Assembly (NCBI GenBank): GCA_944391705.1
Contig: CALXUN010000005.1
Span: 19,873-83,872 of the forward strand
DNA from: an uncultured Alphaproteobacteria bacterium
Lineage (GTDB): Bacteria; Pseudomonadota; Alphaproteobacteria; RF32; CAG-239
Direction of reading: 5' to 3'
Length of the DNA stretch: 64,000 bases
Positions 1,166 to 61,367 of this stretch are shown here, in pieces (within the stretch, counting starts at the first letter, position 1; each line of letters begins with the position of its first letter). The notes beneath the pieces were generated by a model. That model worked only from the letters and a program-made list of their open reading frames with translations, had not been told where the DNA came from and made no database searches. The position numbers and the translations under genes are program-made.

Positions 1166-1241
1166 GGGGTTGTAGCTCAGTTGGGAGAGCGACAGGTTCG
1201 CAATCTGTAGGTCAGGGGTTCGATCCCCCTCAGCTCCACCA
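1166..1241 (+). tRNA. tRNA-Ala (anticodon CGC)
   Basis: A 76-nt cloverleaf was folded by hand. The acceptor is GGGGTTG/CAGCTCC with the G3:U70 Ala identity pair. The anticodon loop is TTCGCAA, the T-loop is GGTTCGATCC, and CCA is encoded. Confidence 0.9.
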
Positions 1242-9025: not shown

Positions 9026-9073
9026 GGAGAATCTTTAAAGTTGCAAAAAAAAAAAACGGTTTAGAATGACGCG
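9026..9073 (+). promoter_or_regulatory. Conserved 48-nt promoter block upstream of a pilin-like gene (TTGCAA-N15-TAGAAT with an A12 tract)
   Basis: This block is identical to 61320..61367. The -35-like TTGCAA is at 9041-9046, the -10-like TAGAAT is at 9062-9067, and the A12 run is at 9045-9056. Confidence 0.55.
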
Positions 9074-12512: not shown

Positions 12513-13280
12513 ATGAACTATAAGACTATTTTAATGGCAACCGCTGCCGTACTTTTAAGTTCTCAAGCTATGGCTGCCGACATCACTAATCCGTTTTTCA
12601 CGCCGGCTAAAGGCGAATTTTTATCAAATACCGAAGCCGGTTATTATCGTGAAAAAGGTACCAGCAAAGCTGATGGATATGTTGATGAAGGCTGGGCTGC
12701 CGCAGAAACCCTGGAATACGGCATTACAGACACAATCAGTGTAAATGCGACAATTGCCAACCAGTTTGATACTTCCGGCGAATATAATAATGACCATAAC
12801 TTTATGTACAGAATCGGTGCTAAATACAACACCCGCTTCAACAGTGTTTTATTCCAGGCTTCCGTTGATTACATGACCTATGATGAACAAGATTTCATCG
12901 GTGGTGAAGGCGACGGTACATGGTATAAAGAATTGGGTGCTGAACTGAAGGTTGGCTATGAGCTTGATTGCGGATTAACTCCTTATGCTTCTTATGCCGT
13001 CCGCGGCAACATTGATGACGGCGACCGTGAATTGGAACAATCGGTTAAAGCCGCCGTTTACAAGAACTTCGGCGCTTATGCCCTTGACCTTGGTTTAAGA
13101 TATGACTTCAATACCGACGGCGACAACACCAACAATTTGTGGGCTGAAGCCGCTGCCGACTATTATGTAACCGATAATGTGGCGGTCGGCTTGTTCGGTG
13201 CTTACCGGATTGACGGTTCAGGTGATAAATACATTGATTACAGCTACAATGCCGGCGTCCGCGTCAAAGTATTGTTCTAG
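12513..13280 (+). CDS. Outer-membrane beta-barrel protein (porin/OMP-like)
   Basis: Signal peptide ending AMA|AD, alternating beta-strand pattern and C-terminal ...VRVKVLF. Confidence 0.7.
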   Translation: MNYKTILMATAAVLLSSQAMAADITNPFFTPAKGEFLSNTEAGYYREKGTSKADGYVDEGWAAAETLEYGITDTISVNATIANQFDTSGEYNNDHNFMYRIGAKYNTRFNSVLFQASVDYMTYDEQDFIGGEGDGTWYKELGAELKVGYELDCGLTPYASYAVRGNIDDGDRELEQSVKAAVYKNFGAYALDLGLRYDFNTDGDNTNNLWAEAAADYYVTDNVAVGLFGAYRIDGSGDKYIDYSYNAGVRVKVLF

Positions 13281-13302
13281 TCATCGATTTTATAAAATTG
13301 AA

Positions 13303-13330
13303 GGGAGCTTGAAACAAGCTCCCTTTTTGT
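13303..13330 (+). terminator. Terminator after the OMP gene
   Basis: Stem GGGAGCTT / AAGCTCCC followed by T5. Confidence 0.65.
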
Positions 13331-13345
13331 GGATTTAATGCCACA

Positions 13346-14043
13346 TTATCGTTTACGAGCAATACAAAAAATATTTTTTCCGCATATCTTTCCAAACGTT
13401 AAAATATCTGTCAGACGGCTTAGCGGAAAAATAATTCTGTCAAAGAAAACCAACGCCCGAGGATTGATTTTTCCACCTTTATCACCAATCAATTTATAGA
13501 GCAAAGTCACCCAAAAACCGGCAAAATCGACATAGCGGCATTGTTCTATGACAAAACCTGACTGCAGTAATAACGACATAAGCCGAGGACGAGTGTATCT
13601 CCGATAATGACCGACTTTTTTATCCATGGACGAATAAAGACATTGAAAAGCCGGAAGATAAAGCAGCAACACACCATCGGCGTTTAATTTATCATTTAAA
13701 ATTTTGAGAATTAAAGCATCTTCTTTGATATGTTCCAAAACATTATACGAATATATTAAATCTGCCGTTCGGTCAAAATCACCAATATCCGTATAGAGTT
13801 TTAATTTATCATTGTTTTGATAAAATTTTTGCAAGTTGTCTGCTTTTTCTATGCAACAAATTCTTTCCCCCCCCCTAGATTTTCGGCAATTTCCGCAGCA
13901 AACAGACCTGTTCCGGCGCCAAAATCCATAATTTTTTCGGCTTTATTTTTCCTAATTTCCTTCAATGCCAGATTAAGCAAAAACCGGTTGTAGTTTTTTG
14001 CAAGTTTCATTGTTTGTAAATTATCTTCACCTGAATAATTCAT
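13346..14043 (-). pseudogene. Class I SAM-dependent methyltransferase split at a G9 homopolymer (frameshifted or phase-variable)
   Basis: ORF 13849..14043 carries motif I (IMDFGAGTG). ORF 13346..13834 carries the rest (YSYNVLEHI...DGVLLLYLP). The C9 run on the + strand at 13867-13875 is G9 on the coding strand. One extra G fuses the two ORFs in frame. Confidence 0.75.
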
Positions 14044-14064
14044 TTGTTATCTATACCTCGAATA

Positions 14065-14979
14065 TTATATTTTATACCTCAAATACGCCTGGCGGCGGGC
14101 TTCATGACGCGAATTTGAAACACTGTCCAAAACAAAACCAACCAATAAAAAGATAAAAGCACAAATCATAATACCGGTAATTAAAATCGCGGTCGGAAAC
14201 CTTGGAACTAAGCCGCTGTGAGCATATTCAACCAACAATGGTATTGATAAAACAACGCCGAACAAAAACAGTGCTAAAGAAATCAAACTGAAAAACAATA
14301 ACGGACGTTCTTCTTTAACGAGCATCACGATAGTTTTAAGAATCCGGATTCCGTCGCGGTAAGTTGACAATTTGCTGAACGATCCTGCCGGCCGCGGAAA
14401 ATAATCCGTATCCACTTCTTTTATCCGCATCCGCGAAGAAAGGGCATAAACCGTTAATTCCGTTTCTATTTCAAAGCCTGCCGATTGTGCCGGAAACGTC
14501 TTGACATACCTTTTGGAAAAAACTCTAAAACCGGAGAGCATATCTTCCAGCTTATGACGGAAAAACGTTTGCACCAAACGCGTCAACAACACGTTTCCCC
14601 ACCGATGACCAACACGATAACACGCCAAATCTACTTCTTTACGCGCACCAATGACCATATCGTACTGACCATCTTTTAAGGTTTTTATCAAATCCGGCGT
14701 ACGCTTGATGTCATAAGTTTCATCACCGTCGGACATTACATAAATATCCGCATCAATATCCGCAAACATACGCCTGACAACATTTCCCTTGCCTTGAAAA
14801 GGCTCTTGGCGGACAATAGCGCCGGCTTTGCGGGCAATCTCAGCTGTATTATCGGTTGAGTTGTTGTCATAAACATAAATATCTGCCTGTGGAAGATATT
14901 TTTTGAAATCTTTAACGACCTTCTTAATTGCTTTGGCTTCATTATAACAAGGCAGTAATACGACTATTTTTTCGTCCAT
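14065..14979 (-). CDS. GT2 polyprenyl-phosphate glycosyltransferase (GtrB/ArnC/DPM1-like)
   Basis: The N-terminal GT-A domain has LLPCYNEA, YDNNSTDNT and SDGDETY motifs. Two C-terminal TM helices follow. Confidence 0.8.
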   Translation of the reverse strand: MDEKIVVLLPCYNEAKAIKKVVKDFKKYLPQADIYVYDNNSTDNTAEIARKAGAIVRQEPFQGKGNVVRRMFADIDADIYVMSDGDETYDIKRTPDLIKTLKDGQYDMVIGARKEVDLACYRVGHRWGNVLLTRLVQTFFRHKLEDMLSGFRVFSKRYVKTFPAQSAGFEIETELTVYALSSRMRIKEVDTDYFPRPAGSFSKLSTYRDGIRILKTIVMLVKEERPLLFFSLISLALFLFGVVLSIPLLVEYAHSGLVPRFPTAILITGIMICAFIFLLVGFVLDSVSNSRHEARRQAYLRYKI

Positions 14980-14981
14980 GA

Positions 14982-16739
14982 TTATTCTCCCAAAATTTGT
15001 TTTTTCAATTCAAGCGGTACACAAATTTTCCATGACTTTCGAAGATTATTTTTAAGCGGACGACAAAAATATCCGTCACTTAACTCCCGGCTCAAGGCTA
15101 CTTCCAAGCGTGTCCAGGTCGGACAATGACCGGCCGCACAATTCCAAGATGCCGGCAGGGTACCTGCCTGACGAAAGTCCTCACATTTTGCACGGATTGA
15201 TGCATACTCTTCAAAATTTTTTAAATTATTTCCTATACCGTCATCATAAACAATTACAACCGGACCAGTATGATTTTTAACAATATCATCACGAATTTGA
15301 CAGAATTTTCCTCTTTCCACAAAATCCGAACCTTTCATCGGCCGGCAGTTAAAATGTTCATATCCGACTGCTCGAAATATATTATTTTCTGCTAATGGTA
15401 CAATAAGTCCGGCAGTCGGATAATTATATAATTTTAACAACGTATTTGGCGGAAATCTTATATCTTCAACATCTACAAACTTATTTTCATCCTGCAACGT
15501 ATTCCACCCTTTTGATCTCCATGCAACAGATATTAGAAACAAAGCTGTCAGCACCATAAAAGAAATATAAAAGCCCTGACTGATTGCTCTTTTGGGGAAT
15601 AAACGCCGTACCAAGATAATAATCAGCAAGGCGCCAAGCATTTCAATCACAACAGCATATCTTAATATGGAAAACAGCAGCATCCAAATTATAAAACTTA
15701 TAAAGATATAAATATATAAAGAAGATAAAAGATGATTATTTTTATATATATCTGTTACTTTATGCCGGTATAGACAATATATCAAAATTCCCCATAGTAT
15801 GGAATAAATCAAAGTTAAACGAATATCCGCATAATCAACTTCAGATATTATCTGATTGTGTAAATACCACAAATAAGGATAGAATAAAAATTTCTGCCAA
15901 TCAGGTAAAAAGCGTTCATCCCGATAATTAAACTTGTCAAAATATTCTGATCCGAACACATTATTTAAAAATGGGAAAACGGGATTATCATACAAAATTC
16001 ACATTTTCCACATCCACCAGCCGTTTATAAGTAAAAAGCCGATTAAGCCGCCCAAAGCAAAAATGATTATTGATTTATACGGCTTTTTCAAATACGGAAG
16101 ACAACATATGAGCATTAATCCGGCACTTATGCAATAAACCACAACAGTTTGCTTTAAGCCTAAGGCAACACCCATTATCAGACCGGCATAAAAAAATTTT
16201 TTAAGGCTTTGCGAATCCGGAAATTTTATCATTTTTAGAAGCAGGTAAAGTCCCCACAGTATCAAGAATGCCATGGGAATTTCATTTGTCGAACTGCCGA
16301 TTTGAAAAAATGTTGCCTGCCCGCTGACAGCAATCACCAAAGTCAAAACCACCCAAACATAATTTTTGATTTGAGTTACATCAAAAAACAACCGGCAGAT
16401 TTGGTAAAATACAAATATCAGCAACCCTGCCCACACACCCTGTAAAGCAAAAATCAGCGGCAAATTCTCATTAAAATGAGAAATAAAAAAATAAAGAGGC
16501 AACTCAATCAAGGGATTAAAAAATGTATTGATTGAAGCCGGAACAATATCATAATTCAAACGGTCGTTTAGAAATGCGAAGGCATTATAATAATGATAAT
16601 TAGCAAAATCCCAACGAAAATCATTACATAAAGATACGCTTAAAATGATGCCGACTGCAAGTAATATCAGAAAGATGGCCACATTACCAAAAAAGCAAAG
16701 CTTACAAGCCCCTGTTTTGTTACCTGAACTTTTCGGCAT
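14982..16739 (-). pseudogene. Polytopic GT-C-like membrane glycosyltransferase candidate interrupted by one in-frame TGA
   Basis: ORFs 15999..16739 and 14982..15995 are in the same frame (1758 nt). They are separated only by TGA at 15999-16001 plus one codon (...WMWKM*ILYDNPVFPF...). There are many TM helices and an early loop RWDFANYHYYNAFAFL. Confidence 0.55.
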
Positions 16740-28135: not shown

Positions 28136-28145
28136 GAAAAGTTAA

Positions 28146-28300
28146 AAAGCCGTCTGGTCGTTTATTACATTTCATATCGAACCGCTTGACCAAGGTGGGC
28201 ACCATTTAATCAGACCACGATCTGAACAGTGACAGTTCCCTAATAATATACTGTTGGCTCGGATAGACCAATGCGGGATAAGACGCGCCAGACAGCCTGT
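28146..28300 (-). ncRNA. ssrS: 6S RNA candidate
   Basis: It lies immediately downstream of zapA, as ssrS does in E. coli. The 5' AGGCTGTCTGG pairs with the 3' CCAGACGGCTT (11 bp including 2 G.U) to close a roughly 155-nt rod. The segment CACCUUGGUCAAGCGGUUCGA resembles E. coli 6S CACCUUGAACCAAGGGUUCAAGG. The ends are approximate. Confidence 0.55.
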
Positions 28301-28315
28301 TTTTATGATATAATA

Positions 28316-37044: not shown

Positions 37045-37130
37045 GGGGGTATGGCGGAATTGGTAGACGCGCTAGACTCAAAATCTTGTGGGTTCATCCC
37101 GTGTCAGTTCGAGTCTGACTACCCCTACCA
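37045..37130 (+). tRNA. tRNA-Leu (anticodon CAA)
   Basis: 86 nt with a long variable arm, D-arm GCGGAATTGGTAGACGC, anticodon loop CTCAAAA, T-loop GTTCGAGTC and encoded CCA. Confidence 0.88.
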
Positions 37131-61319: not shown

Positions 61320-61367
61320 GGAGAATCTTTAAAGTTGCAAAAAAAAAAAACGGTTTAGAATGACGCG
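61320..61367 (+). promoter_or_regulatory. Second copy of the 48-nt pilin promoter block
   Basis: This block is identical to 9026..9073. TTGCAA is at 61335-61340, A12 is at 61339-61350, and TAGAAT is at 61356-61361. Confidence 0.55.

What the first reader, a model, noticed from the sequence alone, without database searches (positions are those of the whole stretch)
13346..14043. G9 homopolymer splits a SAM-methyltransferase in a glycosylation locus (candidate contingency locus)
The coding (minus) strand reads ...GAA AAT CTA GGG GGG GGG AAA GAA TTT GTT GCA TAG. The run is C9 at 13867-13875 on the + strand, and it is the only long G/C homopolymer I found in this AT-rich window. With one extra G the frame becomes ...LGGGERICCIEKADNLQKFYQNNDKL..., which runs straight into ORF 13346..13834. 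That joins motif I (DFGAGTG) and an acidic post-I residue to the rest of the fold (YSYNVLEHI). Poly-G tracts in surface-modification genes are the classic slipped-strand phase-variation device. The alternative is a homopolymer sequencing error.
Basis: partly seen in the sequence, partly recalled or inferred. Interest (0 to 1): 0.7.

Follow-up and report, generated by a model that had tools for sequence, protein, structure and literature searches.

The report
Poly-G switch in glycan methyltransferase gene
A run of nine G's switches off a sugar-pathway methyltransferase gene in an uncultured gut alphaproteobacterium, and the same gene in 40 other metagenome contigs carries ten run variants, about half on and half off, so it is a real mutable on/off switch of a well-known kind.

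Summary
C9 at 13867-13875 (G9 on the coding minus strand) splits a class I SAM-methyltransferase into 64-aa and 162-aa ORFs, and G10 restores a 232-aa enzyme.

A G9 is not rare by composition alone: 26 of 100 shuffles contain one. The comparative data decide the matter.
- The same gene (at least 98% nt identity) lies on 42 fetched metagenome contigs from several studies.
- These carry ten G(n)A(m) alleles: G5A5, G6A4, G4AG5A3, G8A3, G8A4, G8A5, G9A3, G9A5, G10A3, G10A4.
- Run lengths of 3n+1 are ON and all others are OFF.
- Contigs identical over 3.1-3.4 kb of flank differ only by G10 against G9.
- The window's own haplotype occurs as G9A3, G9A5 (both OFF) and G8A5 (ON).
- Short or interrupted tracts are always in frame. 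The interrupted allele is unchanged across five flanking haplotypes.
- No OFF allele has a second lesion, and pN/pS is 0.16.

This is slipped-strand phase variation of the last gene of a conserved GT-C / GT2 / methyltransferase envelope-glycosylation module. The closest known case is Campylobacter cj1426.

Caveats: within-clone switching and the enzyme's substrate are untested, and the window lineage also carries a nonsense codon in the partner GT-C gene.

The parts
13867..13875 (-). G9 homopolymer (C9 on the + strand). This is the hypermutable tract. It encodes the Gly-Gly-Gly loop between the motif I helix and strand beta2.
   Evidence: In the structure model the loop spans residues 56-61. 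The tract lies at a 1-2 residue insertion relative to homologues.
13864..13875 (-). Composite G9A3 run of total length 12, which is the OFF frame. Total lengths of 10 or 13 are ON. Lengths of 11, 12 or 14 are OFF.
   Evidence: Allele tables. Frames checked against the proteins.
13849..14043 (-). 5' fragment of the methyltransferase: 64 aa ending at TAG. It holds only helix alpha-Z, strand beta1 and motif I (DFGAGTG). It lacks the invariant acidic residue E66 and the rest of the fold.
   Evidence: E66 is invariant in alignment A1.
13346..13866 (-). 3' part of the methyltransferase reading frame, reached only when the run length is 3n+1. The listed ORF 13346..13834 is its TTG-initiated remnant.
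13301..13325 (-). Terminator-like hairpin (11 pairs, 6 of them G-C) followed by a T-rich tail, after the methyltransferase stop codon. The gene is last in its operon, so OFF states should have no polar effect.
13301..14049 (-). Island of 98.1-98.5% identity to the other lineages. The flanks are only 80-81% (left) and 88-89% (right) identical. This marks a recombined or transferred gene cassette.
14065..14979 (-). GT2 glycosyltransferase (304 aa) with two C-terminal transmembrane helices. It resembles polyprenyl-phosphate sugar synthases (AglJ/DPM type). It is the conserved upstream partner of the methyltransferase.
   Evidence: PF00535. (AglJ model at 207 bits, below its cut-off). (adjacent in 60 of 79 distant loci).
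14982..16739 (-). GT-C-like membrane glycosyltransferase gene (PMT_2 hit in the N-terminal part). It is 583-584 aa in relatives. Here it is split into 246 + 337 aa by an in-frame TGA at 15999-16001.
   Evidence: relatives have TGG there. (TGA is a genuine stop in this genome).

Best explanation
The tract is a simple-sequence contingency switch.

How it works.
- During replication, slipped-strand mispairing in the G run changes the length of the G(n)A(m) run. The run lies in codons 58-61 of a 232-aa class I SAM-dependent methyltransferase.
- Occasional G-to-A changes at the run's 3' edge or inside it also alter the run.
- When the total run length is 3n+1 (10 or 13), the full enzyme is made.
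- When it is 12, as in the window, translation stops after 64 aa.
- When it is 11 or 14, translation stops after 77-78 aa.
- In both OFF cases the product ends before the SAM-ribose-binding acidic residue and the rest of the Rossmann fold.

What the gene does.
- It is the terminal gene of a conserved three-gene module: a GT-C membrane transferase, a polyprenyl-phosphate sugar synthase (GT2), and this methyltransferase.
- Switching would therefore add or remove a methyl decoration on a lipid-carrier-linked envelope glycan without affecting the other genes.

Shown: the sequence, the frames, the allele diversity on identical flanks, purifying selection, and the module's conservation.

Inferred: the rate and reversibility of switching within a clone, the substrate, the surface location, and the selective agent (phage or host immunity).
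For: - Ten tract alleles occur on 42 contigs carrying the same gene at 98% identity or more. About half are ON and half OFF.
- After collapsing identical contigs there are 23 sequence types.
- One 686-bp flanking haplotype (H0) carries five tract alleles. H1 carries G10A3 and G9A3. The window's haplotype H2 carries G9A3, G9A5 and the ON allele G8A5.
- Contigs with zero differences over 3.1-3.4 kb differ only by G10 against G9.
- The interrupted allele G4AG5A3 is invariant over five haplotypes, so mutability depends on an uninterrupted run.
- All 8 sequence types with short or interrupted tracts are in frame, against 4 of 15 with long tracts. A one-sided hypergeometric calculation done by hand from the counts gives p of about 0.001.
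- No OFF allele has any other lesion.
- pN/pS is 0.16, from 17 synonymous and 10 non-synonymous changes.
- The GGG residues lie in a loop that is 1-2 residues longer than in homologues at 45-58% identity, which lack it.
- The module is conserved: a GT2 homologue is adjacent in 60 of 79 distant loci.
- A terminator follows the gene.
- In Campylobacter jejuni, cj1426 is a poly-G phase-variable capsule methyltransferase, and interrupting its G run locks the phase (PMC8437040).
Against: - All the data are assembly consensus sequences. No read-level or single-clone data show mixed tract lengths or reversibility.
- Many contigs have low coverage (about 2-9x, from the contig names), and several are probably the same samples assembled by different pipelines.
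- A G9 is not improbable by composition alone.
- In the window's own lineage the partner GT-C gene has a fixed nonsense codon. Five of the six sequence-distinct contigs or groups of that haplotype are OFF.
- The enzyme's substrate is unknown. Only generic methyltransferase matches were found.
Confidence: 0.75

Rival explanations
1. The gene is a pseudogene in the window's lineage. On this view the tract mutates easily, but here the pathway is already dead and the OFF state is neutral decay, not an adaptive switch.
For: - The upstream GT-C gene carries an in-frame TGA where relatives have TGG. It is identical in the window and in L005-L007, and TGA is a real stop in this genome.
- Window-haplotype contigs are G9A3 (window, L005-L007, L122, L008) or G9A5 (L038), and both are OFF.
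Against: - L121 has flanks identical to the window (0 differences in 686 bp) and is ON with G8A5.
- No second lesion occurs in the methyltransferase in any of the roughly 20 OFF contigs.
- pN/pS is 0.16.
- The split GT-C might still function as two polypeptides, since the stop and an in-frame TTG are 3 nt apart. This was not tested.
Confidence: 0.13
2. The G9 is a homopolymer sequencing or assembly error in the window, and the true sequence is G10 with an intact gene.
For: - Homopolymers of 9-10 are error-prone.
- The window appears to come from a metagenome-assembled genome, since the same proteins occur on an 86-kb contig found in NCBI, Logan and ENA.
- The contigs have low coverage.
Against: - G9A3 recurs in six distinct sequence types from different samples, assemblers and studies.
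- The window's strain gives G9A3 in contigs whose record names indicate different assembly sources (Logan contigs, 'NODE_' contigs and 'scaffold_' contigs: L005, L006, L007, L122).
- Other alleles differ by 3-4 nt or by substitutions, which are not homopolymer miscalls.
Confidence: 0.07
3. The G9 allele is still expressed. RNA polymerase slippage or -1 ribosomal frameshifting on the G run would restore the frame, so the DNA frameshift would not be a real OFF state.
For: In the zero frame GGG GGG GGG allows perfect tRNA-Gly re-pairing at -1. Slippage on long homopolymers is known in other bacteria (general knowledge).
Against: - There is no stable downstream RNA structure: -10.9 kcal/mol, z = -0.41, and 67 of 200 shuffles fold at least as well.
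- Alleles in all three frames exist at the DNA level, and stable alleles are always in frame. This means the DNA frame matters to selection.
Confidence: 0.05

Closest known systems
Campylobacter jejuni cj1426, the poly-G phase-variable capsule heptose 6-O-methyltransferase, together with the other poly-G genes of the capsule, LOS and flagellar glycosylation loci
   Same: - Both have an intragenic poly-G tract of about 9-10 in a SAM-dependent methyltransferase inside a glycan-biosynthesis locus.
- In both, frame-dependent ON/OFF states occur.
- In both, interrupting the G run locks the phase. This was done experimentally in C. jejuni (PMC8437040). The natural G4AG5 allele here behaves the same way.
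   Different: - The organism here is an uncultured gut alphaproteobacterium, not a campylobacter.
- The enzyme family is unrelated apart from the class I fold, as far as was tested.
- The glycan pathway differs: it is a polyprenyl-phosphate GT2 plus GT-C route, not capsule assembly.
- Only one G/C tract was found in 64 kb, so a multi-gene phasome is not shown.
- The switching rate was not measured.
GtrABC-type and ArnC/ArnT-type periplasmic glycan modification modules (general knowledge)
   Same: - A GT2 with C-terminal transmembrane helices resembles Und-P/Dol-P sugar synthases, and a large GT-C membrane transferase is present.
- A GtrA-family gene is present in sister lineages.
- Salmonella gtr operons are also phase variable.
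   Different: - Salmonella gtr phase variation is epigenetic (Dam/OxyR), not driven by a repeat tract.
- Those modules have no dedicated methyltransferase.
- All NCBIfam matches here are below the equivalog cut-offs.
Haloferax volcanii Agl pathway: AglJ (Dol-P hexose synthase), AglP (methyltransferase) and AglB (GT-C) (general knowledge)
   Same: The same three enzyme types are combined. The best NCBIfam match for the GT2 is AglJ.
   Different: That system is archaeal N-glycosylation. The match is below the cut-off (207 bits against 325), and no phase variation is known there.
Neisseria pgl and lgt genes, and Haemophilus lic and lex genes (general knowledge)
   Same: Simple-sequence repeats inside glycan-modifying genes give stochastic surface-glycan heterogeneity.
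   Different: The enzymes and hosts are different, and the repeats in Haemophilus are tetranucleotides.

Membership tests
Simple-sequence-repeat (contingency locus) phase variation | A homopolymer or short repeat of mutable length (about 7 or more) inside an ORF or promoter | tested here: met
   G9 lies within codons 58-60.
Simple-sequence-repeat (contingency locus) phase variation | A change in repeat number moves the gene between an intact and a truncated frame | tested here: met
   Run lengths 10 and 13 give 231-232 aa. Length 12 gives 64 aa. Lengths 11 and 14 give 77-78 aa.
Simple-sequence-repeat (contingency locus) phase variation | Tract length is polymorphic among otherwise identical or near-identical strains, mutating much faster than the flanks | tested here: met
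   Five alleles occur on one 686-bp haplotype. G10 and G9 occur on contigs identical over 3.1-3.4 kb. The interrupted allele is invariant over five haplotypes.
Simple-sequence-repeat (contingency locus) phase variation | The gene is otherwise intact and under purifying selection, so it is not a decaying pseudogene | tested here: met
   There are no extra lesions. pN/pS is 0.16. Stable alleles are always in frame.
Simple-sequence-repeat (contingency locus) phase variation | High-frequency, reversible switching within a clonal population | not testable with these tools
   Only assembly consensus sequences are available, with no reads and no cultures.
Simple-sequence-repeat (contingency locus) phase variation | The product affects a surface or host- or phage-exposed structure | tested here: inconclusive
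   The gene is co-located with GT2 and GT-C glycosylation genes, and this arrangement is conserved. The target glycan is unknown.
Class I SAM-dependent methyltransferase | Motif I (D/ExGxGxG), an acidic residue at the end of beta2, and a Rossmann-like seven-strand fold | tested here: met
   DFGAGTG is present and E66 is invariant. Pfam Methyltransf_23 scores 43.7 bits against a cut-off of 27. The AF2 model has pLDDT 86.5, and its top Foldseek hits are all SAM methyltransferases.
Class I SAM-dependent methyltransferase | Assignable substrate class (equivalog-level family) | tested here: not met
   All NCBIfam hits are far below their cut-offs. PDB sequence and fold matches are generic.
Polyprenyl-phosphate-sugar (GtrB/ArnC/DPM-like GT2 plus GT-C) glycosylation module | A GT2 catalytic domain with C-terminal transmembrane helices, next to a multi-pass GT-C transferase | tested here: met
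   PF00535 is present, with two hydrophobic C-terminal segments in the 304-aa protein. The adjacent 583-aa gene has a PMT_2 hit. In the window this gene is split by TGA.
Polyprenyl-phosphate-sugar (GtrB/ArnC/DPM-like GT2 plus GT-C) glycosylation module | A GtrA-family flippase in the module | tested here: not met
   No GtrA gene lies in the window's operon. One is present (PF04138) only in the 4-gene insert of sister lineages.

The most novel reading that the evidence does not exclude
The methyltransferase and its hypermutable tract may behave as an exchangeable cassette. It is 98-99% identical across gut alphaproteobacterial lineages whose flanking genes are only 80-89% identical, and it sits in three different gene contexts.

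Within this shared gene pool two kinds of allele coexist. Switchable alleles have G8-G10 tracts. Locked-ON alleles (G4AG5, G6A4, G5A5) arise by G-to-A erosion of the tract. This would be a natural polymorphism for evolvability itself.

Together with the length-variable A10-A12 tract in the promoter-like element of pilin-like paralogues, it would be the first described repeat-based phasome in uncultured commensal Alphaproteobacteria. All of it is readable directly from metagenomes.
Probability: 0.3. Interest if true: 0.6.

Novelty: new member of a known kind. Interest (0 to 1): 0.45.

Why it matters
Poly-G contingency loci are textbook in a few pathogens (Campylobacter, Neisseria, Haemophilus, Helicobacter). 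They are hardly documented in uncultured gut commensals.

This case shows that ON/OFF states of such a switch can be read across public metagenome assemblies. It also yields natural locked-ON alleles.

It points to a conserved but uncharacterised GT-C / GT2 / methyltransferase module whose methyl decoration is apparently worth toggling, plausibly under phage or host immune pressure.

For annotation, the split gene should be recorded as a phase-variable gene in its OFF state. It should not be recorded as two hypothetical proteins or as a simple pseudogene.

Tried and rejected
- Composition statistics on the window alone: a G9 occurs in 26 of 100 shuffles, so this does not establish significance.
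- A JGI metagenome scan with a variable-gap pattern around the tract gave 0 hits.
- Two literature look-ups of run, sample and assembly identifiers, meant to identify the host or environment, found nothing relevant.
- A search for a downstream frameshift-stimulating RNA structure found none.
- Rfam has no families near the locus.
- Attempts to assign a substrate by NCBIfam, PDB sequence search and Foldseek gave only generic class I methyltransferase matches.
- I tested whether TGA might be recoded, which would make the split GT-C gene intact. This was rejected, because the other TGA-terminated frames have only short continuations.
- I first assumed that the window had lost four genes relative to the L040 type. 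Distant relatives show that GT-C / GT2 / methyltransferase is the common arrangement. The four genes are therefore more likely an insertion in the sister lineage.

Full report
**1. The observation**

The minus strand of the window reads ...GAA AAT CTA GGG GGG GGG AAA GAA TTT GTT GCA TAG. The G9 occupies 13875..13867, which is C9 on the + strand. It separates a 64-aa ORF (13849..14043, with motif I DFGAGTG) from a 162-aa ORF (13346..13834).

Adding one G gives a continuous 232-aa protein. That protein passes Pfam's Methyltransf_23 threshold. The tract is the only G/C run longer than 6 in the 64 kb.

- The window is 43% G+C, so it is not markedly AT-rich.
- A G9 is not significant by composition alone. 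The expectation is 0.35 per window, and 26 of 100 shuffles contain one. G/C runs are, however, depleted elsewhere.

**2. The same gene in other assemblies**

The members of its 90% cluster, and of the cluster holding the 64-aa fragment, have lengths of 232, 231, 162, 161, 64, 77 and 78 aa. Their sequences differ at exactly the tract position.

I fetched DNA for 42 contigs (L001-L040, L121, L122). They come from several studies and assemblers. The G(n)A(m) run takes ten forms:

| Allele | State | Contigs |
|---|---|---|
| G9A3 | OFF | 14 fetched contigs plus the window |
| G4AG5A3 | ON | 7 |
| G10A3 | ON | 5 |
| G6A4 | ON | 4 |
| G5A5 | ON | 4 |
| G10A4 | OFF | 2 |
| G8A3 | OFF | 2 |
| G8A5 | ON | 2 |
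| G8A4 | OFF | 1 |
| G9A5 | OFF | 1 |

- Total run lengths of 10 and 13 are in frame.
- A length of 12 stops translation at 64 aa.
- Lengths of 11 and 14 stop it at 77-78 aa.
- Contig counts attached to the cluster members give about 24 ON and 25 OFF.
- Some contigs are probably the same samples assembled by different pipelines. Collapsing all contigs that are identical in tract and in up to 2.5 kb of flank on each side leaves 23 sequence types.

**3. Evidence that the tract is hypermutable and the gene is functional**

Excluding the run, there are only 14 haplotypes, with 27 variable sites in 686 bp.

- Haplotype H0 carries five tract alleles.
- H1 carries G10A3 and G9A3.
- The window's haplotype H2 carries G9A3, G9A5 and the ON allele G8A5. 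L121 has 0 differences from the window.
- L001 and L003 (G10A3) have zero differences over 3.1-3.4 kb from L024, L025, L027 and L029 (G9A3), which come from differently named samples.
- The interrupted allele G4AG5A3 is the same on five different haplotypes. Mutability therefore depends on an uninterrupted run, as it does when C. jejuni poly-G tracts are experimentally interrupted (PMC8437040).
- All 8 sequence types with short or interrupted tracts are in frame, against 4 of 15 with tracts of G8 or longer. A hypergeometric calculation by hand gives p of about 0.001.
- No OFF allele carries any other disabling change. L036 merely loses its last residue.
- Polymorphism is mostly synonymous, 17 against 10, giving pN/pS of 0.16.

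Together these results argue against both sequencing error and simple pseudogene decay.

**4. Where the tract sits in the protein**

In an alignment with homologues at 44-59% identity, the GGG lies in a 1-2 residue insertion. Other family members lack it. It lies between the helix after motif I and strand beta2, whose terminal E66 is invariant.

An AlphaFold2 model (pLDDT 86.5) places residues 56-61 in a coil between helix 47-55 and strand 62-65.

ON alleles encode GGGE, GGGK, GGK or GEGE at this position, so the loop tolerates changes in length and charge. The truncated products lack E66 and everything after it.

**5. Genomic context and likely function**

The organism is an uncultured Alphaproteobacteria MAG lineage. 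The GTDB species representative is BRZ_EQ__bin53, contig CALXZJ010000010.1, with allele G10A3. Its nearest relatives are gut and rumen MAGs, judging from the record titles.

In the window the gene is last in a minus-strand operon with this order:
- a solute-binding-like protein;
- a GT-C-like membrane protein (PMT_2 hit);
- a GT2 of 304 aa with two C-terminal transmembrane segments, whose best NCBIfam match is AglJ or a Dol-P hexose synthase, below the cut-off;
- the methyltransferase;
- a terminator-like hairpin at 13325..13301.

Among 79 distant loci, the methyltransferase homologue has a GT2_304 homologue within 3 kb in 60. In 21 a GT-C homologue also lies within 3 kb. GT-C / GT2 / methyltransferase is therefore a conserved module.

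Sister lineages carry four extra genes between the GT2 and the methyltransferase: an ArnC-like GT2, a second methyltransferase, a GtrA-family gene and a 536-aa protein.

The substrate cannot be assigned. PDB sequence search, NCBIfam and Foldseek give only generic class I methyltransferases.

My inference is that the enzyme methylates a polyprenyl-phosphate-linked sugar or the glycan built from it. Switching would then toggle a methyl decoration on an envelope glycan.

**6. Rival explanations**

- Sequencing error in the window (confidence 0.07). G9A3 recurs in six sequence types. The window's own strain gives G9A3 in contigs whose record names indicate different assembly sources.
- Lineage-specific pseudogene (0.13). 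The partner GT-C gene in the window and in L005-L007 has TGA where relatives have TGG. TGA is a genuine stop here. Most contigs of the window's haplotype are OFF. Against this, L121 is ON on identical flanks and there are no other lesions.
- Expression by transcriptional or ribosomal slippage (0.05). There is no downstream structure, and the in-frame bias of stable alleles shows that the DNA frame matters.

**7. Comparison with known systems, and verdict**

This works like the poly-G contingency genes of Campylobacter jejuni. The closest case is cj1426, a phase-variable capsule heptose 6-O-methyltransferase whose phase is locked by interrupting the G run (PMC8437040; see also PMC4965091 and PMC3417653, listed).

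It is a new member of a known kind, in a new host group and a different glycosylation pathway.

Still untested are within-clone switching, the switching rate, the substrate and the phenotype. Interest is moderate, at 0.45. The finding is real and well supported by population data, but a specialist would not find the mechanism surprising.

Noticed in passing
window 9034-9068 and 61328-61362; also L009, L010, L016-L018 and L040 (for example L040:16606): There are two copies of a promoter-like element, TTTAAAGTTGC-A12-CGGTTTAGAATG, with TTGCAA and TAGAAT hexamers and a 15-nt spacer at A12. Each lies about 50-70 nt upstream of a type-IV-pilin-like paralogue with the N-terminus ...RSMVEMLGVLAIIGVLSVGAISGYS. 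In related contigs the A run is A12, A11 (L017) or A10 (L018) on otherwise identical flanks. This is a possible second, transcriptional, phase-variable locus.
   Followed up: partly
window 15999-16001 (minus strand), within 14982-16739: The GT-C-like glycosyltransferase gene is 583-584 aa in relatives. Here it is split into 246 + 337 aa by an in-frame TGA where L009, L010, L011 and L040 have TGG. The same TGA is present in L005-L007, which are 100% identical over 1758 bp. TGA is a real stop in this genome.
   Followed up: yes
window 13301-14049 compared with L040 and L009: The methyltransferase cassette, from 6 nt upstream of the ATG to the terminator, is 98.1-98.5% identical between lineages. 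Their left flank, including the adjacent GT2, is 80-81% identical, and the pgk/gap flank is 88-89% identical. The same gene sits in three contexts: after GT2_304, after a 536-aa gene, and with or without the 255-aa gene downstream. This suggests recent recombination or transfer of the gene between lineages.
   Followed up: partly
window 12513-13280 (+): A 255-aa protein with a signal peptide and a C-terminal ...VRVKVLF looks like an outer-membrane beta-barrel, but has no Pfam or NCBIfam hit. It lies between the methyltransferase and pgk in the window lineage and in L026, L028 and L038. It is absent in L001, L009 and L040.
   Followed up: no
tract alleles across L001-L040 and L121: At each total run length the G/A boundary varies: G9A3 and G8A4; G10A3 and G8A5; G10A4 and G9A5; G6A4 and G5A5. 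The only internal interruption is also G to A. This suggests recurrent G-to-A changes at or inside the run, possibly by transient misalignment. Such changes shorten the run and stabilise it.
   Followed up: partly
L042-L120 (distant homologues): The methyltransferase family has a GT2_304 homologue within 3 kb in 60 of 79 loci from many phyla (Alpha-, Beta- and Gammaproteobacteria, Bacteroidota and others). In 21 of 79 a GT-C homologue also lies within 3 kb. This is a widespread module that appears to be uncharacterised.
   Followed up: partly
window 28143-28301 (-), 1166-1238 (+), 37045-37127 (+): 6S RNA and two tRNA genes were found by Rfam. They are unrelated to the finding.
   Followed up: no
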